Source of the DNA: a virus
Taxonomy: Duplodnaviria > Heunggongvirae > Uroviricota > Caudoviricetes
Reading direction: 5' to 3' (one strand)
DNA: 26,789 nt
IMG/VR virus record: IMGVR_UViG_2568526722_000004
Location: 1-26,789 of that record
A program made the translations under genes and the position numbers. This document shows, piece by piece, positions 8,973 to 25,362 of the stretch (positions within the stretch are counted from its first letter, which is position 1; every line of letters starts with the position of its first letter). The notes under the pieces were generated by a model that had not been told where the DNA came from, ran no database searches, and saw only the letters and a program-made list of their open reading frames with translations.

Positions 8973-8990
8973 AATGGTGCGATAATAGGA
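8973..8990. repeat. att core repeat (copy of the thrW 3' end): attR of element A and attL of element B
   Basis: AATGGTGCGATAATAGGA matches 25344-25362 AATGGTGCCGATAATAGGA (18/19, one C missing), same orientation. Confidence 0.7.
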
Positions 8991-9049
8991 ACAAATCAAA
9001 CCACATAACCAATTGATTTCTATTATATTTTTATGTTTTAGTTTTCAAC

Positions 9050-9070
9050 ATACCCCCAAAAGTACCCCCA
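9050..9070. repeat. 21-bp repeat ATACCCCCAAAAGTACCCCCA (candidate integrase arm-type site), copy 1
   Basis: Exact 21-bp direct repeat of 25211-25231; contains an internal TACCCCCA duplication; lies about 60 bp inside the left att core. Confidence 0.6.
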
Positions 9071-9307
9071 TAAGCGCCTGTATGATTAGACTCCGGGAAA
9101 AACATAAAAGCTATTCATTTAAGAGCTTTATGTCTTCATTCACTTTGTCAATTAAGAAAGATATCCAAACGAATAAAATTTCAATTTATTGAAGGCCATG
9201 TCATGTTTTCTATTTCTACAGTTTAAAAGTTTTATCATAACCTTCTGTTAGAACAGAATTAATTAGCAAAAAAACCCCAAGGGCATGAGGTTTTTTATTT
9301 TCCATTG

Positions 9308-10288
9308 TCATGCTAAAGCTCGAGCTACATTTTCTTTGATCGCAATAGCACAAGGAGTTTTGAACTTTTCTTTGCAACAGTGTAATAGCGTATTAATATT
9401 CAAATCAGTTTCAAGAATATTTTTTAGCTCACTCTTTCTTTCCGAGATTAAGGTTGGTTTATCTTTGCATTGTTTGACTATTAAGGCAGTTTCATTAATA
9501 TTCAATTGCTCTATCAATGATTTTATGACAGGCATGACAACTCTATCAGCTAAAAAATGACCATTGATATATTGATAGGCGTTATCTTCTCTCAATCCTT
9601 TATCATATAACTGCTCATAGAATTTATCAGCATCGTATTCATCTTGAATAAGGTTATCAAGTTTTTCTTCAATAACCGCTTTAGATTGCTGCATACTTTC
9701 AAATACAGCATTTTTGATAACAAATTGGTTCGTTAATCGTGGCACAGAAGGAGCAATCGCTTCATGGAAAACTGAGTCATCAAGTCTAACTTGATGCTGT
9801 TTAAGCAATAAAAATTTCTTCAGCACGGGGTAGATCAACCGTGAATACTCTGTAATGTATGCTGTAAAATCGAATTTAATTTCAGTAGCGATCTTTATTT
9901 GAGAAAGACAATACTCAAGGACTTCATGGTGTAACTCGATGCTCTCTTTTGAATATACAAATGTTTGAAAAATAAACTTGTTACTGCAAATTATCTCTGA
10001 GTCTGTACTGTTTTTAGGGCATAAATAATCAAAATCACTATCCATTGCAAATATGGCATATCGATTTGCTCGGCTCATGAATTTTTTTAATACTGGTTTC
10101 CCTTTTGTTCCTTTATTGGTAGGGTTACAAATATCAAAACGTATATCATTATCTTTATCGTTTAATAAGCCTTCCCAGAAAGAAATGTCTTTTAGACCTT
10201 CAACAAAGACAAAGCCATTGTGTCCAGCCATAATACAATATACCTGAAGATATTCTTCGCTAAAATTAATATCCTCAAACTCAGTCAT
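9308..10288 (-). CDS. ariB: AriB-like DUF4435/Toprim protein (PARIS defense system effector)
   Basis: 326-aa ORF overlapping the upstream ATPase gene by 8 nt; N-terminal Toprim-like features (MAGHNGFVFVEGLKD..., acidic AIFAMDSDFDY); low GC; the pairing with an ABC-type ATPase is the PARIS (AriA/AriB) architecture. Confidence 0.6.
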   Translation of the reverse strand: MTEFEDINFSEEYLQVYCIMAGHNGFVFVEGLKDISFWEGLLNDKDNDIRFDICNPTNKGTKGKPVLKKFMSRANRYAIFAMDSDFDYLCPKNSTDSEIICSNKFIFQTFVYSKESIELHHEVLEYCLSQIKIATEIKFDFTAYITEYSRLIYPVLKKFLLLKQHQVRLDDSVFHEAIAPSVPRLTNQFVIKNAVFESMQQSKAVIEEKLDNLIQDEYDADKFYEQLYDKGLREDNAYQYINGHFLADRVVMPVIKSLIEQLNINETALIVKQCKDKPTLISERKSELKNILETDLNINTLLHCCKEKFKTPCAIAIKENVARALA

Positions 10289-11276
10289 GAGAAGATTCCT
10301 TTGAAATATTTTTTATATCTACGAAAGAATCCATCCAGCCTTTCATTAATATTGCAGGACTATGAGTAACAATAATTAACTGACAATTATCGTTAATTGA
10401 TTTGATGGTGCTTATTAATCTTTCTTGCCACGTAAGGTGCAAGGATATTTCTGGCTCATCCATCAACAAGACAGATTCATCCAATGAAGTATTAGCTGTT
10501 TTAATCAGAATATATAACAACTGACGTTCACCTGATGAAAGAAGATTATACCTAATATCTTCACCAGAATCACTCATCTTAATAGAAATGTTACCATTAC
10601 TAAAAGAAACAACTTTGTTACATTCAGCAAATAAATTATTTATAGCTGATTCCAACTTATCCTTTATGAGAATACCTTTAGACTCACTTACTTTGAAAGT
10701 ATTCTTTAACCTTTCTAATTCACCAGCAATTTCCATATCAAGAATTGTGGTGCGCTCACCATCACTTTTTTTGAATTCATAGATGGAATTGGCACTCATA
10801 TTGATAGTTGATATTAACTCAACATTTATTCGCTTAGTGTTTTTAATATTATCACTTACGCTAACAGTTCCCATCCCGAACTCTTTAATTTCAGTGTCTT
10901 CTTTTTTCGATTCAAGCAACTCAATAAGTTCATTTAACTCCTTTATTTCCTTACCCTTTGATTTACCTTTAATACTGTTTTTCTTAAGGTTATTAAGTAG
11001 GTTTAGAAGCTGGACAGAGTCAATTTCGCGAAAATTAACTTTGTGAGTAATTGTGCCTCCATTGGCCAATGTTATTTGAGCCAACGCAGCATTACTTAAA
11101 CTTTCATTTAATTCTTGTTTTAAGAGGGCAAAAACACTTTGAATTATCGTGCTCTTACCTGAGCCATTTTTACCCACTAAAACATTCACATCTTTTAAAC
11201 TCCAATCAATGTCCTTCCGTTTAAAAAGACCTTTGATTGCTATATTTTTGATTATCGTCGCCACTCTCGTATCCAT
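10281..11276 (-). CDS. ariA: AriA-like ABC/AAA_15-21 ATPase (PARIS defense system sensor)
   Basis: 331-aa ORF; Walker A GKNGSGKST, signature-like LSSGERQLL, Walker B LLMDEPE, H-loop IIVTHS; low GC. Confidence 0.65.
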   Translation of the reverse strand: MDTRVATIIKNIAIKGLFKRKDIDWSLKDVNVLVGKNGSGKSTIIQSVFALLKQELNESLSNAALAQITLANGGTITHKVNFREIDSVQLLNLLNNLKKNSIKGKSKGKEIKELNELIELLESKKEDTEIKEFGMGTVSVSDNIKNTKRINVELISTINMSANSIYEFKKSDGERTTILDMEIAGELERLKNTFKVSESKGILIKDKLESAINNLFAECNKVVSFSNGNISIKMSDSGEDIRYNLLSSGERQLLYILIKTANTSLDESVLLMDEPEISLHLTWQERLISTIKSINDNCQLIIVTHSPAILMKGWMDSFVDIKNISKESSHD

Positions 11277-11653
11277 TATTATGAAAGTTGAAATGATTAT
11301 AACATGCTTAGCGTGCGCTTGGCATCTACCCTACAGTTGTTAGCAATAAACTTTATAACACAATGTAACACATTGAATTTAAACACTTAATATCAAATCC
11401 AACGCTAAACATCACGGAACCTGAAAGACTCTTGGCATTCTAGTTAGTACCTACTACGAAACGTTTTGAAAGGTTAAAGTGGACAGTCCGCATCAACTGT
11501 AACTTAAAATGCTCAGTAACGATGCATCTGCATGATTTGCAAAGTATGACAGAACTTCATTTGATGCTTTCACAAATGCGTGCCTGAAGTTTTCTAAAGC
11601 GGCGCGGTTAACTCTTTCTGGCTCAAAACCTTAATAAATCTGTATATCGCGGG

Positions 11654-11880
11654 TTGACACACTTGACACTTTTTCGGGAAAAACCTTAACAAAACTTAAC
11701 CTCCCCTGGCATTTCTAAGCATGGCAACTTGACACTTTTCGCGATTTTTTCGGCTTTTTGACGTGGTAAATCTGGCGAAAGGCCAGTAATGGCGCGGCTT
11801 ACAGCGAGGTTGACACTTTTTCGCGTTCAGAGTGTAAAGTGTCAACCTGGCAAGCTGCTCAACTTGACACTTTTTGATGT
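11654..11880. repeat. Array of TTGACAC(T)TTTT direct repeats plus one inverted copy
   Basis: GTTGACACACTTGACACTTTTTCGGG (~11654-11680), AACTTGACACTTTTCGCG (~11727), GGTTGACACTTTTTCGCG (~11808), inverted AGTGTAAAGTGTCAACC (~11831), AACTTGACACTTTTTGATG (~11862); immediately 3' of the 175-aa HTH gene. Confidence 0.55.
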
Positions 11881-12407
11881 CATTGATGGTCTGATTTTTC
11901 CCATTCAGCTAGGGCGTTTAGCCCGGCTTCACTCCATGATTCCAGTTCATCGGCATAATCACCTGCAACATAGCAGAGTTCGCAACGCAGCATACGAATT
12001 GCCAGCCTGGCATTACCTCGCAAATTGTATTTTTCAAAGTAATGCTGCCCTTCATCATCCTCAAGGCAGATAGCACCATCATCAAGAAAGTGCACTTCCC
12101 AGCCTAATTCCCCGGCTGCATCCAGCACACGCTGCTGTATGCCCTCGTCCGTTGCTGGCGCAGGAATTTTACCGCCTCTGGCCTTAACTGCTTTCCAGAA
12201 CTCGCCCCACGTCATTTCCAGCGTTCTTTCTGGCCACATTTCAGAAATGGTGTCTTTCCCCTGTGCTGGTGGGCTGTTCCGCTGCTCTGTCGCTTCCACA
12301 TCAATTTTTTTGCCAGACATGATCACTTCGCCTTTCTCGATCCAGTCGTAAACTGTCTGGCGGCTTACGCCTTTGTATTTGGCGTATTCGGCTTTACTCA
12401 TCAACAT
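11880..12407 (-). CDS. HTH-domain protein with terminase-small-subunit (Nu1)-like N-terminus; possible packaging or regulatory role
   Basis: 175-aa protein from the ATG at 12407 (GAGGTGA RBS 5 nt upstream); N-terminal MLMSKAEYAKYKGVSRQTVYDWIEKGEV resembles the winged-HTH of small terminase/Nu1-type proteins; the track's longer 202-aa form is an unlikely N-terminal extension. Confidence 0.5.
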   Translation of the reverse strand: MLMSKAEYAKYKGVSRQTVYDWIEKGEVIMSGKKIDVEATEQRNSPPAQGKDTISEMWPERTLEMTWGEFWKAVKARGGKIPAPATDEGIQQRVLDAAGELGWEVHFLDDGAICLEDDEGQHYFEKYNLRGNARLAIRMLRCELCYVAGDYADELESWSEAGLNALAEWEKSDHQ

Positions 12408-12506
12408 GTAGCTCACCTCATGCATATACGATAAAAAATAATTTAATGCGAAAAGGGAATGCGTTGTGGGTATGGAGGAAAGGGGCAATAACCGCCCCTT
12501 ACTGAT

Positions 12507-13221: not shown

Positions 13222-13545
13222 TTATTTCATCAGATTTTTCATTATTTGCGCGATTGAGTACACAAGCAAAAACTCGGCAGCCGCAAGAGTATAAAAAACA
13301 TAGATTCGCTTAGCCCACCGACGATGAAAGAACTCCTCAGCATGGCCGAATGTTCGAGATACAAGCCATGCACCTACTGCACACAGAGCAGGTGCAATGA
13401 GCACAGTTATAAACCAGATTGTGATGCCCATCCCATGCCTACTGATAATAGCCATTGGTATTGCAAAAATGAATGTTAGAGCAGCATTAGCTAATAGAAT
13501 ATCTTTTAAAGTATTTTCAATTAGTTTTTCTAGATTATCTTTCAT
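13222..13545 (-). CDS. Small integral membrane protein (about 3 TM helices)
   Basis: 107-aa ORF with hydrophobic segments (LLANAALTFIFAIPMAIISR, ITIWFITVLIAPALCAVGAWLV, IYVFYTLAAAEFLLVYSIAQI); AT-rich; directly downstream of the lipoprotein gene. Confidence 0.55.
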   Translation of the reverse strand: MKDNLEKLIENTLKDILLANAALTFIFAIPMAIISRHGMGITIWFITVLIAPALCAVGAWLVSRTFGHAEEFFHRRWAKRIYVFYTLAAAEFLLVYSIAQIMKNLMK

Positions 13546-13570
13546 CTAATCCCCCCCGTTGAACATTAAT

Positions 13571-13595
13571 ATATAAAAGCCCCTTACTAAGGGGC
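13571..13595 (-). terminator. Intergenic stem-loop with U-run between the lipoprotein and membrane-protein genes (terminator or attenuator)
   Basis: On the minus strand GCCCCT-UAGUA-AGGGGC followed by UUUUAUAUAUU; lies in the 64-bp gap between the two genes. Confidence 0.5.
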
Positions 13596-13609
13596 TTTGC
13601 ACGGATTGT

Positions 13610-14752
13610 TTAAAGGGAACTTTTTTTCGCCCCTTCAATTTCTTCCTGACAAATTTCGTCATTTGTAAATGAGTACTGCAGATAGACATATCCCTGAGTG
13701 GAATTGTTCGCTCTGGCCTCAATAGAGATAGTATCGATATTGTTTTTTAATGGTATTTCTTTTGTTCCCTTCCATGTGGCAGATAAGAAGCGTTCTTTTT
13801 TGTTTAGCCCCCTCATCCAGTCCTGAGGATCTTTCCAAATTGAACCAGCCAGCAAAAAGTCTGTAGTATCAGCCTTTCCATACAGAGAACTTAAAGAATT
13901 ACTCAATTCTTCAAACTTGGATTTAAGAGCCAATCCATAGCTATCAGTATCAATATTTTTTCCTAAAGCCCGTATTTGACATAAACCAGCTTTCGGGGAG
14001 ATCAACAAACCATACATTTCAAAATCTGCGTTTTGCTTCGGTAATTTATCAGAAGTATACAGATTCACACTGTCTGGTAGTGGCTTGAGCTTAGCACCGA
14101 TCATATCTTCGATGTTTTTCTGTGTAAGACCGGCTTCTAAGCCAAACGGACCATCCGCTGGCGGGAGTAAAGGAAGTTGCCCTTGGGAATTTTTGGCTGT
14201 TACTTCCGTTTCAGTACTGTTTTTTGCGTCATTATCTTGTACTGATGCCAGCTTAACTTCAGCGAGGCCATACTTGGCTGTGAGGTACTTTTGCTGCAAC
14301 ATTGCCATGGTCTGCTCTTCAGTGGCAACAGTAGATAATTTTAGTACCTTTATCAGACCACCACTATACTGACGAGCATCAGCTTTGGCTTCGTTGATTT
14401 TTGCATCTAAGCTGTCAATTTCAGTTTTAATTGAAGCCGCAAGCTCAGGATCAGGTTTTACTCCAGATACAACAACATCAATTTTGGCACCTGATTCAAT
14501 AGCATTAATACGCTGTTCCAAAAGCGCTTTATTAGTTCCTAATATTTCCAGTCTTGCTGTTGTCAGATTTTTTATCAACCCACCAGAAAACTGCTGGTCA
14601 ACTTCCTTAGCTGCTGATATTTCACCTTCCGTTTGCGACAGTTCAGCTTTAAGAGCCGCTACTTCCTGTTTCTGTTCTGGAGTTAACTCTTCTGGCCCAC
14701 ATCCGGTTAACATTACTATACCGACTAATGTTGCAATTAAAGTTTTATTCAT
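13610..14752 (-). CDS. Lipoprotein with internal tandem repeat, unknown function
   Basis: 380-aa ORF; signal peptide with lipobox (MNKTLIATLVGIVMLTGCG); two related ~55-aa repeats (…QQFSGGLIKNLTTARLEILGT… and …RQYSGGLIKVLKLSTVATEEQ…); AT-rich. Confidence 0.6.
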   Translation of the reverse strand: MNKTLIATLVGIVMLTGCGPEELTPEQKQEVAALKAELSQTEGEISAAKEVDQQFSGGLIKNLTTARLEILGTNKALLEQRINAIESGAKIDVVVSGVKPDPELAASIKTEIDSLDAKINEAKADARQYSGGLIKVLKLSTVATEEQTMAMLQQKYLTAKYGLAEVKLASVQDNDAKNSTETEVTAKNSQGQLPLLPPADGPFGLEAGLTQKNIEDMIGAKLKPLPDSVNLYTSDKLPKQNADFEMYGLLISPKAGLCQIRALGKNIDTDSYGLALKSKFEELSNSLSSLYGKADTTDFLLAGSIWKDPQDWMRGLNKKERFLSATWKGTKEIPLKNNIDTISIEARANNSTQGYVYLQYSFTNDEICQEEIEGAKKSSL

Positions 14753-14929
14753 ATCCCTATTCCAAATGAAAATATTCAGATTAATCTTATCAGGAACCCA
14801 GATGCAATTGAATATTCATCTGCTCAGCAACGTAGTAGATTTCCTCAGAAAGCATCAACAAAAAACCAAGAGAATCCCATCCTCTGTTACTGACTACAAT
14901 TGTTCTTTTTTTGGTATTTCCTGAATGCC

Positions 14930-15175
14930 TCACCATTGAGCTGATGTAATCCCATCCCGGCATGTGCCCGGCTGATGGTTTCGCGCATCTCCCCCGAAAT
15001 TATCCTGCCTTGCTGGTGGGCGTGCTGCCTTGTGGATACATTCCGCGCGACGTTTTGCCGCCTGTTCCCGTGCCTTGTCATCATTCGCCAGCATGATGAC
15101 CTCAGCCCACCGCGCCGCCGCTCTCCGGTACAGACCACGCGCTTCCAGTGCTTCCGCTTTGCTGTCGTGAATCAT
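14930..15175 (-). CDS. PerC-family transcriptional regulator-like protein
   Basis: 81-aa ORF with ATGA overlap to the upstream gene; MIHDSKAEALEARGLYRRAAARWAEVIM... resembles PerC/Pch-type proteins. Confidence 0.5.
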   Translation of the reverse strand: MIHDSKAEALEARGLYRRAAARWAEVIMLANDDKAREQAAKRRAECIHKAARPPARQDNFGGDARNHQPGTCRDGITSAQW

Positions 15176-15684
15176 GCGCCTATTGTCTCCTTTGCTGCCC
15201 GGCGCTGGCGTTTGCGCTTCTCATTCAGCGCCACCAGCCGCGTTTCTGCGTCCTGTTGTTCCTGTGGTGTCACCTCGCCGCACGGCTGGCCTTTCAGGTC
15301 GTAGCGTACCCCACCAGCCATTAAGGCGCGGTAATAGTGCGGACACTGCGCATAAGATGCCAGCGTCGCACGCAATGCCCCTGGCCCGAATGCCAGCCCC
15401 CTGACGGCGAGATCCTGCATCAGGTCGTCGAATATCCCCACCTTAAGCGGCTTCGGTGCTTCCCGGCTGAATAAGTCAGGCCACAACTCAGTGAGGCGGT
15501 TAACGCGCCTGCGGTTTTTGCGCTGGCGTTTGGTCATATGCCGCCACGGTGTCGCCCCTGTGGGCTTTTGCTGCGCTTTCTGGTTACCGGGCATCACTTT
15601 ATGCGCCGATGTGGTTTTATGATCTTACCCAGCAATAGTGGACACGCGGCTAAGTGAGTAAACTCTCAGTCAGAGGTGACTCAC

Positions 15685-15984
15685 ATGACAAAAACAGTAT
15701 CAACCAGTAAAAAACCCCGTAAACAGCATTCGCCTGAATTTCGCAGTGAAGCCCTGAAGCTTGCTGAACGCATCGGTGTTACTGCCGCAGCCCGTGAACT
15801 CAGCCTGTATGAATCACAACTCTACAACTGGCGCAGTAAACAGCAAAATCAGCAGACGTCTTCTGAACGTGAACTGGAGATGTCTACCGAGATTGCACGT
15901 CTCAAACGCCAGCTGGCAGAACGGGATGAAGAGCTGGCTATCCTCCAAAAGGCCGCGACATACTTCGCGAAGCGCCTGAAATGA
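15685..15984 (+). CDS. insE: IS3 transposase OrfA (InsE)
   Basis: 99-aa product [32 protein letters not shown]... with AGGTGA RBS; matches IS3 InsE from memory. Confidence 0.9.
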
Positions 15985-16847
15985 AGTATGTCTTTATTGA
16001 AAAACATCAGGCTGAGTTCAGCATCAAAGCAATGTGCCGCGTGCTCCGGGTGGCCCGCAGCGGCTGGTATACGTGGTGTCAGCGGCGGACAAGGATAAGC
16101 ACGCGTCAGCAGTTCCGCCAACACTGCGACAGCGTTGTCCTCGCGGCTTTTACCCGGTCAAAACAGCGTTACGGTGCCCCACGCCTGACGGATGAACTGC
16201 GTGCTCAGGGTTACCCCTTTAACGTAAAAACCGTGGCGGCAAGCCTGCGCCGTCAGGGACTGAGGGCAAAGGCCTCCCGGAAGTTCAGCCCGGTCAGCTA
16301 CCGCGCACACGGCCTGCCTGTGTCAGAAAATCTGTTGGAGCAGGATTTTTACGCCAGTGGCCCGAACCAGAAGTGGGCAGGAGACATCACGTACTTACGT
16401 ACAGATGAAGGCTGGCTGTATCTGGCAGTGGTCATTGACCTGTGGTCACGTGCCGTTATTGGCTGGTCAATGTCGCCACGCATGACGGCGCAACTGGCCT
16501 GCGATGCCCTGCAGATGGCGCTGTGGCGGCGTAAGAGGCCCCGGAACGTTATCGTTCACACGGACCGTGGAGGCCAGTACTGTTCAGCAGATTATCAGGC
16601 GCAACTGAAGCGGCATAATCTGCGTGGAAGTATGAGCGCAAAAGGTTGCTGCTACGATAATGCCTGCGTGGAAAGCTTCTTTCATTCGCTGAAAGTGGAA
16701 TGTATCCATGGAGAACACTTTATCAGCCGGGAAATAATGCGGGCAACGGTGTTTAATTATATCGAATGTGATTACAATCGGTGGCGGCGGCACAGTTGGT
16801 GTGGCGGCCTCAGTCCGGAACAATTTGAAAACAAGAACCTCGCTTAG
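15981..16847 (+). CDS. insF: IS3 transposase OrfB (InsF), DDE catalytic domain; expressed as OrfAB by -1 frameshift
   Basis: 288-aa ORF overlapping the orfA stop (ATGA); DDE-type integrase core (…HTDRGGQY…, …[11 protein letters not shown]…). Confidence 0.9.
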
Positions 16848-16982
16848 GCCTGTGTCCATATTACGTGGGTAGGATCATTATCCTGCTCCTGCGCCGCCTG
16901 CGTCGTTTTCTGCGGCGTGCCGTAAATGCCTTTCGGTTTTCTGTTAATGGTCAGCTTAGTCATGCTTTGCCCCATCGTTACA

Positions 16983-17316: not shown

Positions 17317-17344
17317 TTTTAAGTTTCAACTTATAAATTTCGTA

Positions 17345-19150
17345 TCATGTTCTGTCGTTAATGCCTGCCGTTGCTGGTAACCATCCATCAGCATCTTTAT
17401 CTAACAGAACATTTGTGATCGTTCGCCCTTTATCTGGACCTTTAGTGCATTTAGCCCGCTTGTACTCCTTTCCGTACTCAGCCATTGCCCCTGGCATATC
17501 TGTACCAAAGCGTGTCAGTGATACCGGTTTTCCCAGACCATGCGCAGACATATAAGCCAAATAAGCATGATACAGATATCGCCTCGGACTAAATGGCACT
17601 ATTTCTGCATTACCTACTATCATTCCCTCACATTTAACCAACGACATCAGATAACCGCAGAAGTCCACCAGCGAATCACCTTCACGCTTTATCAACAGTG
17701 CTTCTTCTGATTTTTGCTGCTCATAAAGTAGTCTTTTCGCTTCGTCCTGGTCGGCAAATCGTGTAAGCAAATGGCGAATCACTACTGCCAGTTCCCCTTC
17801 TATCTTTTTCGCCAGCATCGGATCGCGTTCGTTCTCTGGTACAACCTCAGAGAAATTAAATATTACTCGTCGACGCGAGATCCCCCCACTACGGTCGCTG
17901 AATGACATGGCATAATTGTTTACTGCCAGCACTACCGCAGGAACGCGCGTGGAATAGGGCGCTTTGTGTTTCGGATCGATAGCCACCTTGTCACCGCCTG
18001 TAATGGCCTTAATCCCAGCACCATCACCTGCGTAGCGGGTCATGTCAGGCATGATAATCAGAGAATATCCCACCACTAACGCTCGTTCCCTCGCGTCTTC
18101 CAGCGCCTTCATGCTCGCCGATACTGTATTGGCCTTACCCGCCAGCATGGTACAAATCTCCGCCATCACACTTTTACCGCTTCCGCCCGGCCCCGTTACC
18201 TCAAGGAATAACTGCCAGTCGTACCGGTTCGCCAGTACCATGAATAATGCCGCCAGTACGCGATCCGCTTTACGAGCATTATCCGCCACCGAACGACGCA
18301 ACCACTTCCAGAAATTCGGCGCATGTGTTGCCAGCGTTTCCCCCTCTTCTGGCGGGCTGAACGGTAATTCACTGGCATTTAACAACCAGTCATTTTTGTT
18401 GTGTTCCCGAAAATTTCCTGTCCTGATATCAAAAACACCGTTACTGAACCCAATAAGATTTCTGTCCGCTCCCCCCATAACAGGTAGACTCAATTTCATT
18501 GTCTCTACGGCAAATTTAATGGCGTTTTGCGAATAACTAATTTCGGCATCAATAAAAATCTTCGCCATAGACCGCTGGAGTTCCTTATCAGATACAGGCT
18601 CCCAAACAATTCCGTTGTAATGGTGAACTACATCAGAATCATCATTTATCGCCAGTGCTCCTCCATAATGTTCAAGTAACACTTCCCCTCTCTGGCTGGC
18701 TCCCATCTGATTTAATGCAGGCTTGGGTAGACCACTATTTTTTGTAGCTAATTTCATCACTGAAACTTCCCCGTGCTCAGCCTGTTCGCGGATCCGTTGC
18801 AGGTAGTCGCGCCAGTTCTCCGGTTCCTGGTCGGTGATACCTTTGTATAATTTCGCCTCCTGTACGCCAGCCAGCGCCAGCTTTTCAGCGATAGTATTGA
18901 TCTGGATTGGCTCTATCTCCCCCGCGATATAGACACGCGCAAAACGGCGTTTCTCGTCAATAATGCGGATATTCGCCAGGTCTGCCAGTTGCTTTGGCCC
19001 CAGGTAAACAGGAGGCACGTTATCGCCGTGTTTTCGTCCTTCACTTTCAATCCAGTGTTGAGCATGGGCGTAAGCATCCATCCCGGCAAAAATGATTACC
19101 TCAGTGAATTTATCCTTCGGCTGATATTTTAGACTCGGTGCGTTTTTCAC
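17345..19150 (-). CDS. Replication primase/helicase-like protein (P4 alpha / D5-type SF3 NTPase family)
   Basis: 601-aa ORF; Walker A in ...LEVTGPGGSGKSVMAE...; last gene of a tightly coupled operon; followed by the iteron array. Confidence 0.7.
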   Translation of the reverse strand: MKNAPSLKYQPKDKFTEVIIFAGMDAYAHAQHWIESEGRKHGDNVPPVYLGPKQLADLANIRIIDEKRRFARVYIAGEIEPIQINTIAEKLALAGVQEAKLYKGITDQEPENWRDYLQRIREQAEHGEVSVMKLATKNSGLPKPALNQMGASQRGEVLLEHYGGALAINDDSDVVHHYNGIVWEPVSDKELQRSMAKIFIDAEISYSQNAIKFAVETMKLSLPVMGGADRNLIGFSNGVFDIRTGNFREHNKNDWLLNASELPFSPPEEGETLATHAPNFWKWLRRSVADNARKADRVLAALFMVLANRYDWQLFLEVTGPGGSGKSVMAEICTMLAGKANTVSASMKALEDARERALVVGYSLIIMPDMTRYAGDGAGIKAITGGDKVAIDPKHKAPYSTRVPAVVLAVNNYAMSFSDRSGGISRRRVIFNFSEVVPENERDPMLAKKIEGELAVVIRHLLTRFADQDEAKRLLYEQQKSEEALLIKREGDSLVDFCGYLMSLVKCEGMIVGNAEIVPFSPRRYLYHAYLAYMSAHGLGKPVSLTRFGTDMPGAMAEYGKEYKRAKCTKGPDKGRTITNVLLDKDADGWLPATAGINDRT

Positions 19151-19437
19151 TTCTTACCTCCCGCAACCAACATTGCCCGGATTTTTTTAATATTCGTGGC
19201 TGCACGTCTCGCCACTGCCTGTTGTTTGTTTTCCACCACAATAAAATCACGATCAAACTGACGGCGCGGCATTACGCAGTCATATTCGTAAGCCTCACGG
19301 CGGTAGGTGATATTGCCTGGCGTAACGTGACGAATAACCACCCGTCCCCCGCGTCTGGTGTCCCGGAAAATATCACCGGGGCGGATTTCAGGCCGAGAGA
19401 GGCCGCTGGCAGTAAAGCCAGAATTTTTCTTTTTCAT
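19147..19437 (-). CDS. Hypothetical protein (replication operon)
   Basis: 96-aa ORF whose stop overlaps the primase start (ATGA). Confidence 0.45.
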   Translation of the reverse strand: MKKKNSGFTASGLSRPEIRPGDIFRDTRRGGRVVIRHVTPGNITYRREAYEYDCVMPRRQFDRDFIVVENKQQAVARRAATNIKKIRAMLVAGGKK

Positions 19438-19441
19438 GGTT

Positions 19442-19642
19442 TTATTTTCCTGTCAGCAGTTCCGGTTTTATTTCCGCACGAATACAAAGTTCAGAAAAAA
19501 ATTCAGGAGAACCAACAATCTCATTACTTTTCAGTCGGCATTGTGATTTCACTTTCCCTTTATCCAGGTAAACCAGTACGCGTCCGGTGAAATCATCTGG
19601 CACATTAAGCACTACGGGTACATGCGCTTCATGATTATGCAT
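19442..19642 (-). CDS. Hypothetical protein (replication operon)
   Basis: 66-aa ORF; start overlaps the upstream stop by 8 nt. Confidence 0.4.
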   Translation of the reverse strand: MHNHEAHVPVVLNVPDDFTGRVLVYLDKGKVKSQCRLKSNEIVGSPEFFSELCIRAEIKPELLTGK

Positions 19643-19868
19643 GGCTTACATCCTCCGTGAATTTTCTTCTGTAACGCGTCTCTGCCACATATTCCGCATA
19701 GTCCGACGCAATACTAAGAATCATTTCACCCTCTGACTTGTAGCCACTGGTATTGATAAGAAAATATGCAGCTTTCATCATGTCAGCAACGCTCAACAAT
19801 GCGCCCGCTGCATCTTCCGGTGCGCCATCAAATTCCCGTTTCAGGGAATTAAAACGATCATCACGCAT
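19635..19868 (-). CDS. Hypothetical protein (replication operon)
   Basis: 77-aa ORF; start overlaps the upstream stop by 8 nt. Confidence 0.4.
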   Translation of the reverse strand: MRDDRFNSLKREFDGAPEDAAGALLSVADMMKAAYFLINTSGYKSEGEMILSIASDYAEYVAETRYRRKFTEDVSHA

Positions 19869-20226
19869 GTTTACCCCCCTGAATGACCTGATAACCGCAA
19901 CTGGTCAGCAACTCGATAAATTCCGGCAGTGTGCCGAAACAGCAATCATCACGCAGCCGTTCGCGGGATACTTCAACGCCGTTTTCGTAGTGACTCACCA
20001 TACGCCCGGTAAAATGCAGATCATCATCGTGATGGCTCGTTGACGGCTTAATCAGTCGCGCACGTTCCGCCAGTTCCAGCAATGCTTCAACGCTTCCGGC
20101 AATTGCACCATCCGGCAGGTGGTAATTACGCACTATGCGCCCGTTCTCCACATTGACCAGCAACTGCCCGGTAAATTTCTCGTCAAACTGAATGCTGTTA
20201 AGGTCAGAAATTGACAGGTTATGCAT
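19861..20226 (-). CDS. Hypothetical protein (replication operon)
   Basis: 121-aa protein from the second ATG (20226), which has a perfect AGGAGG RBS 6 nt upstream; the track start at 20244 is less likely. Confidence 0.45.
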   Translation of the reverse strand: MHNLSISDLNSIQFDEKFTGQLLVNVENGRIVRNYHLPDGAIAGSVEALLELAERARLIKPSTSHHDDDLHFTGRMVSHYENGVEVSRERLRDDCCFGTLPEFIELLTSCGYQVIQGGKHA

Positions 20227-20443
20227 GGTGCACCTCCTGCACATCAGCCATGATAATTTTTCCGGCCTTATCCAGTGCCTGATCGGCTTTTAGCTGCACA
20301 AATGCTAAATAATGGGAGATGCATTCTGATTCTCTGGCTGCGTGTTTATGCGCCACACCAGCGATAGCAGAAATCTCAATAAGTGAATCCATCAGCGTTT
20401 TGATAGCGTCTACCGCTGCATCAGGCCATGTTGCATTACACAT
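20219..20443 (-). CDS. Hypothetical protein (replication operon)
   Basis: 74-aa ORF; start overlaps the upstream stop by 8 nt. Confidence 0.4.
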   Translation of the reverse strand: MCNATWPDAAVDAIKTLMDSLIEISAIAGVAHKHAARESECISHYLAFVQLKADQALDKAGKIIMADVQEVHHA

Positions 20444-20639
20444 GTTCCACCTCCTGGCGAATACGGGCGGCGAATACCATCACGCAGCCATCAGGAGATT
20501 GCTGGCGTGCTTCCTGTTCGCTGGTGGCCTCGATGTGAATTACGCGCGGTTGTGCCGTGCTCAGGGCGATAAAACGCCAGATGTATTTATTCAGGTTGTG
20601 CGAGTCCCGCCCTTGCGGGTGTGTGGTATGATTTCTCAT
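20436..20639 (-). CDS. Hypothetical protein, first gene of the replication operon
   Basis: 67-aa product from the ATG at 20639 with GAGGT RBS, just downstream of the operator region; it is the plausible C-terminal segment of the 435-aa track ORF. Confidence 0.4.
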   Translation of the reverse strand: MRNHTTHPQGRDSHNLNKYIWRFIALSTAQPRVIHIEATSEQEARQQSPDGCVMVFAARIRQEVEHV

Positions 20640-21329: not shown

Positions 21330-21743
21330 CATTGGTGCAAAGCTGACACATTGCCCACCAGCCGCAAATCTGGCATTGTTGGCGATGCGTTCAAGTATGT
21401 AGCTTTCCCACTGGCGGCCCTCTGCGGTCGCCTTTGTTTTATCCAGAACGAAATCAGACATCAGATTGATCAGCACCTGGCGACCTGACAAAATCGCATC
21501 AGTCGCGCCACCAGCAAAATTTTTTGCTTTCCGGACAGTGTGACCAACGACATTTTGCAGCAAAATATTCTGCATTTCTGGCGTGCTGTAGTAACGGTGA
21601 TCAGCGCCTTCACTCTGTGCGACCACAACGCTATAATCTGCCTCGTAGACAGTAAGCAATATGGCGCAGTAGGCTATTCGTTCACAAAGGCGCTCCGGCA
21701 ACGGGGCGCTTTCTCTTTTTGTAACGGTCAGAGCGTTACACAT
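21330..21743 (-). CDS. Hypothetical protein co-transcribed with the antirepressor; 3' end undefined
   Basis: ATG at 21743 overlaps the antirepressor stop by 8 nt; the first ~140 codons look protein-like, but the frame has no stop until 20436 and runs through the + strand RHH gene and operators, so the true end is unknown (21330 is arbitrary). Confidence 0.3.
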
Positions 21744-22536
21744 GGCTGTTTTCCTCCATGCGACGGGCTAACCAACGCTGCGAAAGACGAATTAATTCAG
21801 CCTTCCGCTGGTGGTAGTCCTGGCCTAACTCAATCAGCGTGATATTGCTCTGCTCAAGGTAAGAAAGGTGCTCAAGCTGCAACGTGCTCATGTGGTCGCG
21901 TGGTTCGCCTGTAATGCCGTTCGCCAGTGCCCACTGTTTTGCAGTCATGCCACCCAGCACGATACGCGCCAGCATGTTCGCTTCCGTGGTGTAGTGGTGC
22001 TGGAGTGTGTTTTTACCCAGTTCAGCCCGGTACGCCTCCAGCGCGGCACACATTGGCTTAAAGTAGCTGGCAACTGTGATACGGGCTTTCAGTTCCCGGC
22101 GTAACGCTGCGGAACGAACAGGCGCAACCTTGTGTAGCTCCTCCTCGCATTTGATAAAGTACTGGCGAACGGCGCGGCCCTGTTCGGTACGTTCGACCAT
22201 CGCCAGTTCTTTCGCCATGTTCACGGTGATGATGTACTCAAGAGCTGTTTGCTGGCGAGATTTTGCGCTCACCGGATCGGGTCGGCTCAAATATTCAACA
22301 ACCTCATAATCCACGCCTTCCGTGAAGCCGTATTCTTCAATGCGCCCCTTGATCCACGAACGGAAAACGCGCCCTACACCTAACGCCTTATGTAACGCTC
22401 TGGCACTAACAATATTGGTTTCACTCCCGCCAATAACGCCGGAAATAATCGGGATAATATCGCCGAGATTTTGCAGATTCTGGTTTTCAGGCCGAACGAA
22501 GCCCCGCCCCTGTACGGGCATTTTTGGAAATTTCAT
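21736..22536 (-). CDS. Phage antirepressor (Ant/Rha-type)
   Basis: 266-aa ORF; segment ...ALEYIITVNMAKELAMVERTEQGRAVRQYFIKCEEEL... is characteristic of phage antirepressor/Rha-type proteins. Confidence 0.55.
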   Translation of the reverse strand: MKFPKMPVQGRGFVRPENQNLQNLGDIIPIISGVIGGSETNIVSARALHKALGVGRVFRSWIKGRIEEYGFTEGVDYEVVEYLSRPDPVSAKSRQQTALEYIITVNMAKELAMVERTEQGRAVRQYFIKCEEELHKVAPVRSAALRRELKARITVASYFKPMCAALEAYRAELGKNTLQHHYTTEANMLARIVLGGMTAKQWALANGITGEPRDHMSTLQLEHLSYLEQSNITLIELGQDYHQRKAELIRLSQRWLARRMEENSHV

Positions 22537-22613
22537 AAAAACTCCTGCTATCGAATTAAGTTACTTTTATTTGCTGGTGGATAGCTGGGGGCAATAGCCC
22601 CGTAGCCATTTAA

Positions 22614-22811
22614 TCAGGTAGCTGTTCCGCGTGATTCCGCAATACGCTGATTAATCCACTCGTCAATTTCACTCTCAACGAAAGCAATAGCTCGCGAGCC
22701 AATTTTAACTGATGCAGGAAATTTACCTTGCCCCATAAGGCGATAAATCCATGCCTTGCTATATCCAGTTCTACGCTGAACTTCTGTTAAACGAATAAGC
22801 GTATTTGACAT
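22614..22811 (-). CDS. alpA: AlpA-family phage transcriptional regulator
   Basis: 65-aa ORF: MSNTLIRLTEVQRRTGYSKAWIYRLMGQGKFPASVKIGSRAIAFVESEIDEWINQR, a typical AlpA HTH; sits downstream of a P4-type integrase. Confidence 0.8.
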   Translation of the reverse strand: MSNTLIRLTEVQRRTGYSKAWIYRLMGQGKFPASVKIGSRAIAFVESEIDEWINQRIAESRGTAT

Positions 22812-22880
22812 ATATTTACCTCATAACGTCTACTCAATTTGACGAGGTAATCATGGCACAGAAATAACGAATATTTTCAT

Positions 22881-23023: not shown

Positions 23024-23038
23024 ATGCGGTATGGTGCG

Positions 23039-23842: not shown

Positions 23843-23964
23843 ACCTCAGCGTCCTCTACTGTAGTGGCTGTACCAGTCCGTCGAGGTGTACGGATTTTCG
23901 GGAGCGACCCTAGACACAGCCTTTTCTTTCGTCGCTCAAAGTCTACTACTGTATACTCAACCAG

Positions 23965-25179
23965 TCACCCGCATTTTCCGAACTCACCATGCACCACATT
24001 TCCGCCATGCTCGAGCGAATCCATATAATCAGCGTACCACTGAAGCATTTCCCGCCGCCCATCCAGATATTGCGCATGGTTGTATGTGCCACGAATTGAG
24101 TTTTTATCGACGTGCGCAAGCTGTGTCTCTATCCACGCGGTGTTATAGCCCTGCTCATGCAAAATGGTGCTCATAGTGTGCCGGAAGCCATGACCAGTAA
24201 CCTTTCCGTTATAGCCGATGCGTTTAAATACTTGGTTTATGCTAGCCTCGCTCATTGTTTTCCTTGGATCATTACGGCCGGGAAACATAAGCGGATAATT
24301 GCCAGTTAGTTCTTTAATCTGCCCAATAAGCGAAAGAGCCTGCTCAGACAAAGGCACTACATGAGGGCGACGCATTTTCATCCGTGAAGCAGGTATCTCC
24401 CAGATAGCCTTGTTGAGATCGATTTCATCCCATAATGCACCGCGCAGTTCGCCAGTCCGCAAACCGGTGATAATCAGTAAACGAGCCGCCATAACAACCA
24501 ATGCACTTCCTGAGTAACTGGACAATGCCTTGAAAAAATCAGGTAATTCTTTGGCTGTGAGGAAAGGATAATGATTAGATTCATGACCTTGCATCGCGCT
24601 GGTGAGATCCGGTGCAGGGTTATACTCAGCACGTCCAGTGACAATTGCATAGCGGAAAACTTCCCCACATCGCTGCCTCACTTTTTTGGCTTTTTCGGTA
24701 GCACCGCGCCCCTCGATGCGCCGCAGCACATTCAGCAGTTCAAGTGGTTTGATTTCGGCGATTGGTTTTTTGCCAATGTAAGGGAACACATCTTTGTTGA
24801 AGGCTTCGAGGATGTCTGAAGCATAACCAGCAGACCATTTTTTTAATTTGCTGCTGTGCCACTCAAGGGCAATATCTTTGAAGGTGTTGTTTAACTGCGT
24901 TTCCCGGGCAATCTTTTCCTCTCGTTTCGCTTCCATCGGATCGATACCCCCAGCGATACCCCTTTTAGCTTCTTCACGTTTTGCACGAGCATCAGCCAAG
25001 GTAACTTCAGGATACACACCTAGTGCTAACAGCTTCTCTTTACCAGCTACACGATACTTGAAGCGCCAATATTTTCCTCCACTAGGTTTTACCAAGAGAT
25101 ACAGACCACCACCATCAGCCAGCTTGTAAGCCTTCTCTTTTGGCTTGGCAGTGTCTATTTGACGGGCATTGAGTTTCAC
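23965..25179 (-). CDS. Tyrosine recombinase, P4-type integrase
   Basis: 404-aa ORF next to and co-oriented with thrW; N-terminal MKLNARQIDTAKPKEKAYKLADGGGLYLLVKPSGGKYWRFKYR... (P4-integrase N-terminal domain type) and C-terminal ...GHGFRHTMSTILHEQGYNTAWIETQLAH...Y catalytic region. Confidence 0.9.
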   Translation of the reverse strand: MKLNARQIDTAKPKEKAYKLADGGGLYLLVKPSGGKYWRFKYRVAGKEKLLALGVYPEVTLADARAKREEAKRGIAGGIDPMEAKREEKIARETQLNNTFKDIALEWHSSKLKKWSAGYASDILEAFNKDVFPYIGKKPIAEIKPLELLNVLRRIEGRGATEKAKKVRQRCGEVFRYAIVTGRAEYNPAPDLTSAMQGHESNHYPFLTAKELPDFFKALSSYSGSALVVMAARLLIITGLRTGELRGALWDEIDLNKAIWEIPASRMKMRRPHVVPLSEQALSLIGQIKELTGNYPLMFPGRNDPRKTMSEASINQVFKRIGYNGKVTGHGFRHTMSTILHEQGYNTAWIETQLAHVDKNSIRGTYNHAQYLDGRREMLQWYADYMDSLEHGGNVVHGEFGKCG

Positions 25180-25210
25180 TTGGGGGTACCTCCACTAAAC
25201 CGAACAGCAA

Positions 25211-25231
25211 ATACCCCCAAAAGTACCCCCA
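25211..25231. repeat. 21-bp repeat ATACCCCCAAAAGTACCCCCA (candidate integrase arm-type site), copy 2
   Basis: Exact direct repeat of 9050-9070; lies between the integrase start and the tRNA. Confidence 0.6.
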
Positions 25232-25343
25232 ATTGACTGTAGATTTTGGAGTACTTAAGTAGACGTCAAAAGACTAAAAGGGGCGCTAACATGCGGATTA
25301 TAAGAGGTTTTTAAATACTTGAGTAGACTTGGGGATACATTAG

Positions 25344-25362
25344 AATGGTGCCGATAATAGGA
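25344..25362. repeat. att core at the thrW 3' end (attL of element A)
   Basis: AATGGTGCCGATAATAGGA overlaps the last 17 nt of the tRNA gene; imperfect direct repeat at 8973-8990. Confidence 0.7.

What the first reader, a model, noticed from the sequence alone, without database searches (positions are those of the whole stretch)
8973..25362. Tandem occupancy of thrW: a ~16.4-kb satellite-like island bounded by tRNA 3'-end repeats, abutting a second integrase of a lambdoid remnant
The last ~17 nt of tRNA-Thr plus two flanking bases (25344-25362) recur at 8973-8990 (18/19 identity) in the same orientation. The P4-type integrase lies inside this interval next to the tRNA, while a second, lambda-type integrase ends 13 nt outside the distal repeat and is transcribed toward it. 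This fits two elements that integrated sequentially at the same tRNA and share one att junction.
Basis: seen in the sequence. Interest (0 to 1): 0.6.

Follow-up and report, generated by a model that had tools for sequence, protein, structure and literature searches.

The report
Satellite island and prophage remnant at thrW

Summary
thrW (tRNA-Thr CGT) lies at 25346-25421(-). Its last 17 nt plus 2 flanking nt (25344-25362) recur at 8973-8990, with one C deleted.

- The interval is a PICI-type phage satellite with a P4-type integrase, int-alpA RNA, AlpA, AntA, a D5/P4-type primase with adjacent iterons, and no structural genes. It carries PARIS (AriA/AriB) in a low-GC cargo slot and an IS3 insertion.
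- Its integrase is 96.8% identical to that of EcCIMP1, a published thrW PICI whose excision was shown experimentally.
- The left element has an integrase 99.7% identical to Shigella phage SfIV Int, which uses a 46-bp thrW attP. It is a remnant, with two deletion joints.

Among 5,426 complete E. coli genomes:

| Configuration at thrW | Genomes |
|---|---|
| Empty site rebuilt from the repeats | 948 |
| Island alone | present |
| SfIV-type phage alone | present |
| Window order (island next to thrW), related islands | 10 |
| Reverse order (phage next to thrW) | 148 |

The elements therefore move independently. The C deletion occurs in every island-bearing context examined, so it is probably carried in the island's attP. 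That confines strand exchange to AATGGTGC.

Verdict: a new member of a known kind, of low interest.

The parts
1..386 (-). Internal fragment of a lambda-type tail-tip gene gpJ. It is the left side of a deletion/recombination joint at 386/387.
   Evidence: PHROG 2148 tail fiber, E = 4e-81, profile positions 695-828 of 901. 100% identical to annotated gpJ genes of lambdoid prophages elsewhere in E. coli. No genome in the collection carries the 386/387 joint.
387..8960 (.). Early and integration region of an SfIV/SfV-like prophage. It contains a truncated DUF968/HNH gene, KilA-N (596-1393, minus), an O'-RusA' fusion ORF (1413-1775, minus), a cII-like gene (2120-2683, minus), an S24/cI-like repressor (3006-3680, plus), xis (7486-7920, plus) and int (7797-8960, plus).
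   Evidence: 97-98% DNA identity to Shigella phages SfIV and SfV. PHROG assignments. A 1.78-kb deletion relative to SfIV removes gp42, gp43 and most of the primosomal gene gp41. Int is 99.7% identical to SfIV Int over 387 aa.
8973..8990 (+). Distal att repeat (AATGGTGC-GATAATAGGA). It is the island's attR and what remains of the phage's thrW-side att core.
   Evidence: The same single-C form is found at the distal end of this island family in every context examined.
9308..11276 (-). PARIS anti-phage system: AriB (9308-10288, DUF4435) and AriA (10281-11276, ABC-type ATPase). It sits in a 32% GC variable cargo slot (8991-11648).
   Evidence: PADLOC: AriB E = 3.6e-22, AriA E = 2.6e-43. Pfam: DUF4435, AAA_21, AAA_15. 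GC profile. Related islands match only from window 11649 onward and carry other cargo.
11659..11874 (.). Cluster of TTGACACTTT repeats (4 direct copies plus inverted copies) at the start of the conserved island core. Function unknown; possibly an operator or packaging site.
11880..12407 (-). HTH protein with weak resemblance to a small terminase or excisionase.
   Evidence: PHROG 57 terminase small subunit, E = 3.8e-6, N-terminal HTH only. Pfam HTH_17. Annotated as MerR family in the identical locus.
13222..14752 (-). Accessory genes of unknown function: a 380-aa predicted lipoprotein (13610-14752) and a 107-aa membrane protein (13222-13545).
   Evidence: No hit in Pfam, PHROGs, PADLOC or NCBIfam. 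A lipobox LTGC is visible in the translation.
14887..15175 (-). PerC-family regulator pseudogene (frameshifted).
   Evidence: Annotation of the identical island in L001 and L002.
15172..16963 (-). ProQ/FinO-family gene interrupted by IS3.
   Evidence: The intact 176-aa gene in L002 hits Pfam ProQ at 4.6e-23. The window ORF is cut at 15619.
15620..16877 (+). IS3 insertion, 1,258 bp, with a 3-bp target duplication TTA (15617-15619 and 16878-16880).
   Evidence: The IS is absent from otherwise identical islands.
16982..17333 (.). Putative replication origin: about 10 CTGTCTACC-type iterons in both orientations around an AT-rich palindrome, immediately 3' of the primase gene.
17345..19150 (-). Primase/helicase (Pri-Rep type).
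   Evidence: Pfam D5_N, DUF5906 and Pox_D5. PHROG 864 DNA primase, E = 2e-152. NCBIfam P4-family primase C-terminal domain.
19147..20639 (-). Small early genes: DUF4222, four small hypothetical proteins and an Icd-like protein.
21736..22536 (-). AntA/AntB-type antirepressor.
   Evidence: Pfam AntA, E = 2.5e-23. PHROG anti-repressor.
22614..22811 (-). AlpA-family regulator. By analogy with other Gram-negative PICIs, this is the presumed master activator.
   Evidence: Pfam Phage_AlpA, E = 2.4e-19. Role inferred from PMC6092414 and PMC11773190.
23039..23842 (-). 267-aa protein of unknown function between int and alpA.
   Evidence: No significant family hit.
23853..23920 (-). int-alpA RNA motif.
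   Evidence: Rfam RF02996, 45.5 bits against a gathering score of 35.8.
23965..25179 (-). Island integrase: P4-type tyrosine recombinase, 404 aa.
   Evidence: Pfam Arm-DNA-bind_3, Phage_int_M and Phage_integrase. 96.8% identical to the EcCIMP1 integrase.
25344..25362 (+). Proximal att repeat (AATGGTGCCGATAATAGGA), overlapping the 3' end of thrW.
25346..25421 (-). thrW, tRNA-Thr (CGT), intact.
25536..26789 (-). proA, the chromosomal flank.

Best explanation
Two independent integrative elements occupy thrW in tandem.

An SfIV-like temperate phage integrated first. [quoted passage not shown] That left int-xis next to a regenerated thrW.

A PICI-type phage satellite then integrated into the regenerated thrW, using its own P4-type integrase. 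The satellite is 15.1 kb, or 16.35 kb with an IS3 that inserted later. This event placed the satellite between the phage integrase and the tRNA.

The satellite's attP core differs from thrW by one missing C. Strand exchange must therefore occur within the 8 bp AATGGTGC, which are the last 6 nt of the tRNA plus 2 nt downstream. The tRNA keeps its own sequence, and the distal junction (8973-8990) becomes a hybrid of tRNA-derived and attP-derived halves.

The satellite carries a PARIS (AriA/AriB) defence system in its variable cargo slot next to attR. By analogy with EcCIMP1 and EcCICFT073, it should be activated through AlpA by a helper phage, excise with its Int, replicate from the iteron origin with its primase, and be packaged in helper capsids.

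The prophage has since decayed through deletions and can no longer act as a helper.

What is shown here: the repeats, the gene content, the independence of the two elements, the empty site, and the remnant status. What is inferred: the order of arrival, the crossover position, helper dependence and PARIS activity.
For: - **Repeats and tRNA:**
- **Empty site:** an attB rebuilt from the repeats is present at 100% identity, and 948 of 5,426 genomes carry it.
- **Island alone** at thrW, 100% identical apart from the IS3.
- **SfIV-type int directly next to intact thrW**, with homology ending at window 8990.
- **Phage attachment site:** the SfIV attP, read from the phage genome, is the P arm plus 46 nt identical to thrW plus the P' arm. 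The window's left flank equals the P arm. The SfIV paper also reports a 46-bp attP and thrW integration (PMC3851460).
- **A complete array of the same order in strain ARS-C101:** native flank, then a 46-nt thrW fragment with CC, then a full SfV-like prophage with int, then the 18-nt single-C repeat, then a related island with int, then thrW.
- **The reverse order also exists.** There the 46-nt fragment lies between the island int arm and the phage P' arm, in 148 genomes. The window order occurs in 10 genomes.
- **The single-C distal repeat** appears with at least five different left contexts: chromosome, chromosome variant, SfIV P arm, a more distant phage P arm, and another island's int arm.
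- **PICI gene set with no structural genes**; iterons next to the primase; int-alpA RNA.
- **PARIS**.
- **Closest characterised relative:** the EcCIMP1 integrase is 96.8% identical and uses the same att. That PICI's helper-dependent, int- and alpA-dependent circularisation and transduction were shown experimentally.
- **Remnant status of the phage**.
Against: - The window ends inside the left element, so its far end and the expected 46-nt thrW fragment are not visible.
- No complete E. coli genome in the collection carries exactly this junction. The closest are related islands at 84-92% identity across the junction.
- No excised attP circle of this island was found. The single-C attP and the 8-bp crossover are therefore deductions.
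- Apart from Int and att, the island shares little with EcCIMP1: about 70-74% DNA identity in antA and alpA only, and a different replicase. No helper phage is known for it.
- The ProQ-like gene is broken by IS3 and perC is frameshifted, so mobility could be impaired.
Confidence: 0.85

Rival explanations
1. Positions 1-25362 form a single composite element that moves as one unit. The inner repeat would be a relic with no independent function.
For: With a far-left thrW fragment, the two outermost repeats could in principle support co-excision. The exact junction is unique in the collection.
Against: The island occurs alone at 100% identity. The phage type occurs alone. Both orders occur. Each half has its own integrase and its own att length, 46 nt against 8+10 nt.
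Confidence: 0.03
2. The order of arrival was the reverse. The island was resident first, and the phage then integrated into the island's distal pseudo-att site rather than into thrW.
For: The junction at 8973-8990 would look the same under this history. The far-left end of the phage is outside the window.
Against: The SfIV-type attP shares 46 nt with thrW, reaching the anticodon loop, whereas the island's attR offers only 18 nt with an indel. In ARS-C101 the far junction of the same-order array carries the full 46-nt fragment with CC beside the native flank, so that phage recombined with a whole thrW. When the phage arrives second it is found on the tRNA side.
Confidence: 0.07
3. The island is not a helper-dependent satellite. 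It would be a plain integrative defence island or a P4-like element that merely shares int, alpA and primase modules.
For: Helper dependence, interference and packaging functions are untested. The only packaging hint is a weak HTH match to TerS. The integrase and primase are of P4 family type.
Against: No Psu, Delta, Sid or capsid genes appear in any ORF scanned. The int, alpA, small early genes, pri-rep, iteron ori and accessory-gene order, and the 15-kb size, match Gram-negative PICIs. The integrase and att are shared with the experimentally validated PICI EcCIMP1.
Confidence: 0.12
4. The 18/19 repeat is a chance match.
For: The repeat is short.
Against: There were no matches in 100 shuffles for the 19-mer even with 3 mismatches allowed. 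Both copies coincide to the base with the homology breakpoints to empty-site, island-only and phage-only genomes.
Confidence: 0.005

Closest known systems
EcCIMP1, a phage-inducible chromosomal island of E. coli MP1 (ISME J 2025, PMC11773190)
   Same: It uses the same integration site: tRNA-Thr between proA and the yagU side. Its integrase is 96.8% identical. Its direct repeat includes TCCTATTATC, the reverse complement of GATAATAGGA, and its distal copy has the same single C. It has the same int, alpA, antA, Icd-like, primase, perC layout. It also lies in a tandem array, with a Vat island and an SfIV-type int remnant.
   Different: The replicase differs: TOPRIM-DUF927 (about 918 aa) against D5_N/DUF5906 (601 aa). 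EcCIMP1 carries P22-like ejection-protein genes and a second alpA, and it has no PARIS. DNA similarity outside int is only about 70-74%, in antA and alpA. Its helper is Kapi1; no helper is known for this island.
EcCICFT073-type Gram-negative PICIs (Fillol-Salom et al. 2018, PMC6092414)
   Same: int at one end, AlpA activator, Pri-Rep with an adjacent origin, no structural or lysis genes, a size of about 15 kb, and accessory genes at the far end.
   Different: The 2018 paper lists att sites never occupied by prophages as a common feature, written for the Gram-positive PICIs it extends from. This island shares thrW with SfIV-type and other phages, although at a different sublocation. No direct sequence comparison with EcCICFT073 was made here.
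Serotype-converting Shigella phages SfIV, SfV, SfI and SfII (PMC3851460)
   Same: The left element's Int is 99.7% identical to SfIV Int. The early region is 97-98% identical. It uses the same thrW target and the same P arm.
   Different: The window copy is a remnant. The replication gene is truncated, everything from DUF968 to the late genes is replaced by a lambda-type gpJ fragment, and the gtr side is not in the window.
Tandem arrays of islands at tRNA genes (Islander database, PMC4383910) and integrase sublocation preference (Williams 2002, as cited)
   Same: Each member has its own integrase and its own tRNA fragment. The two integrases use different sublocations of one tRNA gene: an anticodon-loop-to-3'-end block against the extreme 3' end.
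   Different: Nothing differs in principle. This is a specific instance at E. coli thrW.
PARIS (AriA/AriB), described in hotspots of P4-like satellites (Rousset et al. 2022, PMC9122126)
   Same: An adjacent ABC-type ATPase and a DUF4435 protein, carried in a satellite's variable cargo slot.
   Different: The carrier is a PICI-type island, not a P4-like one. Activity has not been tested.

Membership tests
Tandem array of integrative elements at a tRNA gene | Each element has its own integrase and its own tRNA-fragment repeat in direct orientation with the tRNA. | tested here: met
   The island has int at 23965-25179 and a repeat at 8973-8990. The phage has int at 7797-8960. The phage's own distal fragment is outside the window but is present (46 nt) in the equivalent array of ARS-C101.
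Tandem array of integrative elements at a tRNA gene | The elements occur independently, and an empty site exists. | tested here: met
Gram-negative PICI | An integrase at one end followed by an alpA regulator in the same orientation. | tested here: met
   Pfam hits for the integrase and Phage_AlpA. The int-alpA RNA lies between them.
Gram-negative PICI | A Pri-Rep replication protein with an adjacent iteron origin. | tested here: met
   D5_N, DUF5906 and Pox_D5 domains. About 10 iterons around an AT-rich core at 16982-17333. Origin function itself is not tested.
Gram-negative PICI | No phage structural or lysis genes; size around 15 kb. | tested here: met
   No capsid, tail, terminase large subunit or lysis hit in any annotated ORF. 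15,092 bp without the IS3.
Gram-negative PICI | An att site never occupied by prophages. | tested here: not met
   thrW is also the target of SfIV-type phages and at least one further element type. The crossover sublocation differs: 8 bp at the 3' end against a 46-nt block. The accepted PICI EcCIMP1 fails the same criterion.
Gram-negative PICI | Helper-phage-dependent induction, packaging and high-frequency transfer. | not testable with these tools
   Shown only for the relative EcCIMP1.
P4-like satellite | Presence of psu, delta, sid (capsid-size and transactivation genes) and an alpha-type primase. | tested here: not met
   No Psu, Delta or Sid hit in the Pfam or PHROGs scans of any island ORF. 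Only the integrase and the primase C-terminal domain are of P4 family type.
Capsid-forming PICI (cf-PICI) | Own capsid, portal, protease and connector genes. | tested here: not met
   None found.
PARIS defence system | Adjacent AriA (ABC-type ATPase) and AriB (DUF4435/TOPRIM) genes. | tested here: met
   PADLOC: AriA 2.6e-43, AriB 3.6e-22. Pfam: AAA_21, AAA_15, DUF4435. The genes overlap by 8 nt.
PARIS defence system | Abortive defence triggered by phage anti-restriction proteins. | not testable with these tools
SfIV/SfV-type thrW-integrating prophage | An SfIV-type Int and Xis next to an attP P arm, with a 46-bp core identical to thrW. | tested here: met
   Int is 99.7% identical. The P arm is identical apart from 1 nt. 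Only the first 8 nt of the core remain contiguous, because the island is inserted there.
SfIV/SfV-type thrW-integrating prophage | A complete phage genome (replication, lysis, morphogenesis). | tested here: not met
   The replication gene is truncated by a 1.78-kb deletion. At 386/387 the DUF968 gene is fused to a gpJ fragment. The remainder lies outside the window.

The most novel reading that the evidence does not exclude
The order of the array may matter.

The satellite recombines only in the last 8 bp of thrW, whereas the SfIV-type integrase appears to need a block that reaches the anticodon loop. If so, a satellite that inserts on the tRNA side of a resident SfIV-type prophage separates the phage's int-side arm from its crossover site by 16 kb. 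That would split the phage's attL and lock the prophage in place until the satellite leaves. The reverse order would leave both elements excisable.

Under this reading the satellite immobilises a competing or helper prophage through att-site geometry. It would fit two observations. The window order is rare (10 genomes against 148). In 4 of the 5 same-order arrays examined the distal phage is decayed, whereas six reverse-order arrays carry phages of about 44-47 kb.
Probability: 0.2. Interest if true: 0.45.

Novelty: new member of a known kind. Interest (0 to 1): 0.2.

Why it matters
- **For annotation.** A region that would otherwise be called one "incomplete prophage" resolves into two elements with base-exact borders. 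One is a probably mobile PICI-type satellite carrying PARIS; the other is a dead SfIV-like prophage.
- **For the PICI definition.** Together with EcCIMP1, this is a counter-example to the rule that PICI att sites are never used by phages.
- **For the EcCIMP1-type att site.** The repeat is 8 + 10 bp with a 1-nt offset, not 10 bp. Strand exchange is confined to the extreme 3' end of thrW, so the element never has to supply tRNA sequence.
- **Overall.** None of this changes current understanding. Tandem arrays at tRNA genes, thrW as a hotspot, PICI cargo hotspots and PARIS are all established.

Tried and rejected
- **Excised island junction.** I searched IMG/VR viral contigs for the reconstructed attP (TTNGAATGGTGCGATAATAGGAACAA). 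The two hits were integrated tandem arrays, one phage-island and one island-island, not circles. This gives no direct attP evidence.
- **Structured RNAs.** An E-value search of Rfam over the 1.1-kb gap between the Icd-like gene and antA (20400-21800), looking for c4- or IsrK-type RNAs, found nothing.
- **Promoters and terminators.** The consensus scan was not enriched over shuffles and is not informative.
- **Literature.** A full-text search for thrW together with PICI returned nothing; the EcCIMP1 paper writes 'tRNA-Thr'. Williams 2002 (PMC100330) is not held in the library, so the sublocation concept is cited second-hand.
- **P4-like satellite and cf-PICI.** Both were rejected because the defining genes are absent.
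- **Single composite element and chance repeat.** Both were rejected on the comparative evidence.
- **The 435-aa ORF at 20436-21743.** I consider it spurious. It spans the separately annotated Icd-like gene and plus-strand small genes, and it is not called in any of the annotated identical islands.
- **Searches not run.** I ran no further search on the unknown cargo proteins, because they do not bear on the finding.

Full report
**1. Observation**

The window holds one tRNA gene, tRNA-Thr (CGT), at 25346-25421 on the minus strand. It is followed by proA at 25536-26789(-), so it is thrW. The identical locus is annotated as tRNA-Thr, proA, proB, phoE in E. coli.

On the plus strand, 25344-25362 reads AATGGTGCCGATAATAGGA. 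That is the 17 3'-terminal nt of the tRNA plus 2 nt downstream. Positions 8973-8990 read AATGGTGCGATAATAGGA in the same orientation. The only difference is one missing C. The substitution-only scan does not list this copy for that reason, while a scan allowing up to 2 edits finds exactly these two sites. Chance is negligible, and both copies coincide with comparative breakpoints (section 4).

**2. The interval 8991-25343**

Reading away from thrW, the minus strand carries the following.
- A 404-aa integrase with Arm-DNA-bind_3, Phage_int_M and Phage_integrase domains, which is the P4-type architecture.
- The Rfam int-alpA RNA motif at 23853-23920.
- A 267-aa protein of unknown function.
- AlpA (Pfam 2.4e-19).
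- An AntA antirepressor.
- An Icd-like protein, several small early genes, and a DUF4222 protein.
- A 601-aa primase-helicase with D5_N, DUF5906 and Pox_D5 domains.
- About ten CTGTCTACC-type iterons around an AT-rich palindrome at 16982-17333, immediately 3' of the primase. This is a plausible origin.
- A ProQ/FinO-family gene split by a 1,258-bp IS3 (15620-16877, target duplication TTA).
- A frameshifted perC.
- A lipoprotein and a membrane protein with no family match.
- An HTH protein with a weak resemblance to TerS.
- A 32% GC segment encoding AriA and AriB of PARIS (PADLOC 2.6e-43 and 3.6e-22; Pfam AAA_21, AAA_15 and DUF4435).

No capsid, tail, lysis, Psu, Delta or Sid genes were found in any ORF. 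Without the IS3 the element is 15,092 bp. This is the gene content and layout of a Gram-negative PICI as defined in PMC6092414. It is not a P4-like satellite.

Related islands in other genomes match only from window 11649 onward and carry different genes next to attR. Positions 8991-11648 are therefore a variable cargo slot.

**3. The left element**

Positions 387-8972 are 97-98% identical to the Shigella serotype-converting phages SfIV and SfV. The 387-aa integrase is 99.7% identical to SfIV Int. Those phages integrate into thrW through a 46-bp attP (PMC3851460).

I read the attP from the SfIV genome. It is a P arm (...GTAACTTATTGATTTTAA), then 46 nt identical to the 3' part of thrW up to the anticodon loop, then a P' arm (TATAAGAATCC...). 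The window's sequence left of 8973 is that P arm, with one substitution.

The element is a remnant, for two reasons.
- A 1.78-kb deletion relative to SfIV removes gp42, gp43 and most of the primosomal gene. It creates a 120-aa ORF (1413-1775) whose first half is O-like and whose second half is RusA.
- At 386/387 the first ~67 codons of the DUF968/HNH gene are fused in frame to an internal piece of a lambda-type gpJ. That piece is 100% identical to gpJ of other lambdoid prophages. No genome in the collection has this joint.

The window ends inside gpJ, so the far end of the remnant is unseen.

**4. Comparative test of independence**

All searches used 5,426 complete E. coli genomes.

| Configuration or query | Result |
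|---|---|
| Empty site: a synthetic attB made of the outer flank of an island-only genome plus the window's thrW side | 100% identity over all 802 nt; 948 genomes at 80% coverage or more in one place |
| Island alone: whole interval between yagP'/paoD and thrW | 100% identity apart from the IS3 (GCM74-1-1 and others) |
| Phage type alone: SfIV-type int abutting an annotated intact thrW | Match ends at window 8990 |
| Window order (phage int, repeat, island) | 10 genomes, with related islands at 84-92% identity across the junction; none with the exact junction |
| Reverse order (island int arm, 46-nt thrW fragment, phage P' arm) | 148 genomes |
| Island-type integrase gene at 80% coverage or more | 505 genomes, always chromosomal |

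In ARS-C101 the complete window-order array can be read. It runs: native flank, a 46-nt thrW fragment with CC, a full SfV-like myovirus, int, the 18-nt single-C repeat, a related island, int, thrW.

**5. Mechanistic deduction from the indel**

The distal repeat of this island family has a single C in every context examined. The left neighbours are the chromosome (L001, L002), a chromosome variant (L006), the SfIV-type P arm (window, L003, L010, L011, L012), a more distant phage P arm (L008), and another island's int arm (L005, L009). thrW itself always has CC.

Independent integrations giving the same deletion imply that attP carries AATGGTGC-GATAATAGGA. Integration yields a distal site made of attB-left plus attP-right, and a proximal site made of attP-left plus attB-right. 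The observed products (distal C, proximal CC) therefore require the exchange to occur to the left of the indel, within AATGGTGC.

The island thus uses the extreme 3' end of thrW and never has to rebuild the tRNA. The SfIV-type phage shares a block that reaches the anticodon loop. Different integrase families using different sublocations of tRNA genes is established (citing Williams 2002). Tandem arrays are a recognised class in Islander, with 125 among 2,168 genomes.

**6. Closest known element**

EcCIMP1 (PMC11773190) is a PICI integrated in tRNA-Thr between proA and yagU. It is flanked by TCCTATTATC, the reverse complement of GATAATAGGA, and lies next to another island. Its circularisation and transduction depend on helper phage Kapi1, on its integrase and on alpA.

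I fetched the MP1 locus and compared it with the window.
- The integrase is 96.8% identical to the window's.
- The distal repeat has the same single C.
- The internal modules differ. EcCIMP1 has a TOPRIM-DUF927 replicase and P22-like ejection genes. DNA identity is only about 70-74%, in antA and alpA.

MP1 also holds an SfIV-type int remnant further out, so it is a three-element array. The window island is therefore a new mosaic member of a published thrW-PICI integrase family. It carries PARIS, a system already known from satellite hotspots (PMC9122126).

**7. Possible extra biology**

The two att geometries differ. Inserting the island on the tRNA side of an SfIV-type prophage separates the phage P arm from the anticodon-loop region by the length of the island. 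If the phage crossover is in that region, the phage cannot excise until the island leaves. The reverse order leaves both att pairs intact.

Two observations fit this idea but do not prove it.
- The window order is about 15 times rarer than the reverse order (10 against 148).
- The distal phage is a remnant in 4 of 5 same-order arrays examined: the window, SW07164, CP131_Sichuan and 18AR0366. ARS-C101 is the intact exception. Six reverse-order arrays carry phages of about 44-47 kb, judged from positions, but these may be clonally related.

The simpler explanation is that the distal element is by definition the older one. That fits equally well, so I give the lock-in idea about 0.2.

**8. Verdict**

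The arrangement is an ordinary instance of well-known phenomena: a new member of a known kind, of low interest. Its value lies in exact borders, in the refinement of the EcCIMP1-type att site, and in a further example of a PICI sharing a tRNA target with phages.

Noticed in passing
window 1-620 (joint at 386/387): One open minus-strand frame fuses the first ~67 codons of a DUF968/HNH gene (SfIV gp45-like) to an internal piece of lambda-type gpJ. SfIV-like phages have Mu-like tails, so the remnant is either a hybrid lambdoid phage with an internal deletion or the product of exchange with another prophage. No complete E. coli genome in the collection has this joint.
   Followed up: partly
window 1413-1775 (-): A 120-aa chimeric ORF. 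Residues 1-60 match replication-initiator (O-like/primosomal) families and residues 60-120 match RusA. It was created by a 1.78-kb deletion relative to SfIV and ARS-C101.
   Followed up: yes
window 15620-16877: An IS3 (1,258 bp, target duplication TTA) interrupts the island's ProQ/FinO-family gene. In strain VTB97585v the same island instead carries an IS3 inside its integrase gene.
   Followed up: yes
window 11659-11874: Four direct copies and further inverted copies of TTGACACTTT, spaced at 54-81 nt, lie at the boundary between the variable cargo slot and the conserved island core. They could be an operator array or a packaging site.
   Followed up: no
window 13222-14752 (-): A 380-aa predicted lipoprotein (lipobox LTGC) and a 107-aa membrane protein lie in a second lower-GC patch (about 39-41%). 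Neither matches anything in Pfam, PHROGs, PADLOC or NCBIfam. They are conserved across the island family and might be a superinfection-exclusion or other accessory module.
   Followed up: no
window 20436-21743 (-): The mechanical 435-aa ORF is probably not a gene. Annotated identical islands call only a 67-aa Icd-like gene at its 3' end and small plus-strand genes (YlcI/YnfO family) across the rest. The 1.1-kb region has no Rfam match.
   Followed up: partly
L006 21424-21490 and L010 35995-36060: A third kind of element at thrW shares the 19-nt block with CC intact and continues GTAAAACACTCGATTAATCTCG.... Its integrase lies on the opposite strand next to baseplate-protein genes. L012 additionally shows a P4-like element (psu, delta) and a retron-type reverse transcriptase in the same array. 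thrW arrays can hold three or more element families.
   Followed up: no
L005 (E. coli MP1) 3334-3524: Beyond the published EcCIMP1 and its adjacent Vat island, MP1 retains the 3' end of an SfIV-type integrase gene and a degenerate third repeat (AAAATGGATAATATAAAC). The published 'PICI plus adjacent island' is therefore a three-element array.
   Followed up: partly
L007 (SfIV) 13515-13600 compared with the empty attB: Similarity between the SfIV attP and the native site extends beyond the reported 46 bp into the sequence downstream of thrW: GTAACTTATTGATTTTAA against GTAACTCTTTGATTTTAA, 16 of 18 positions.
   Followed up: no
E. coli genomes survey: The window order (island next to thrW, phage distal) occurs in 10 genomes and the reverse order in 148. 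In 4 of 5 same-order arrays inspected the distal phage is decayed.
   Followed up: partly
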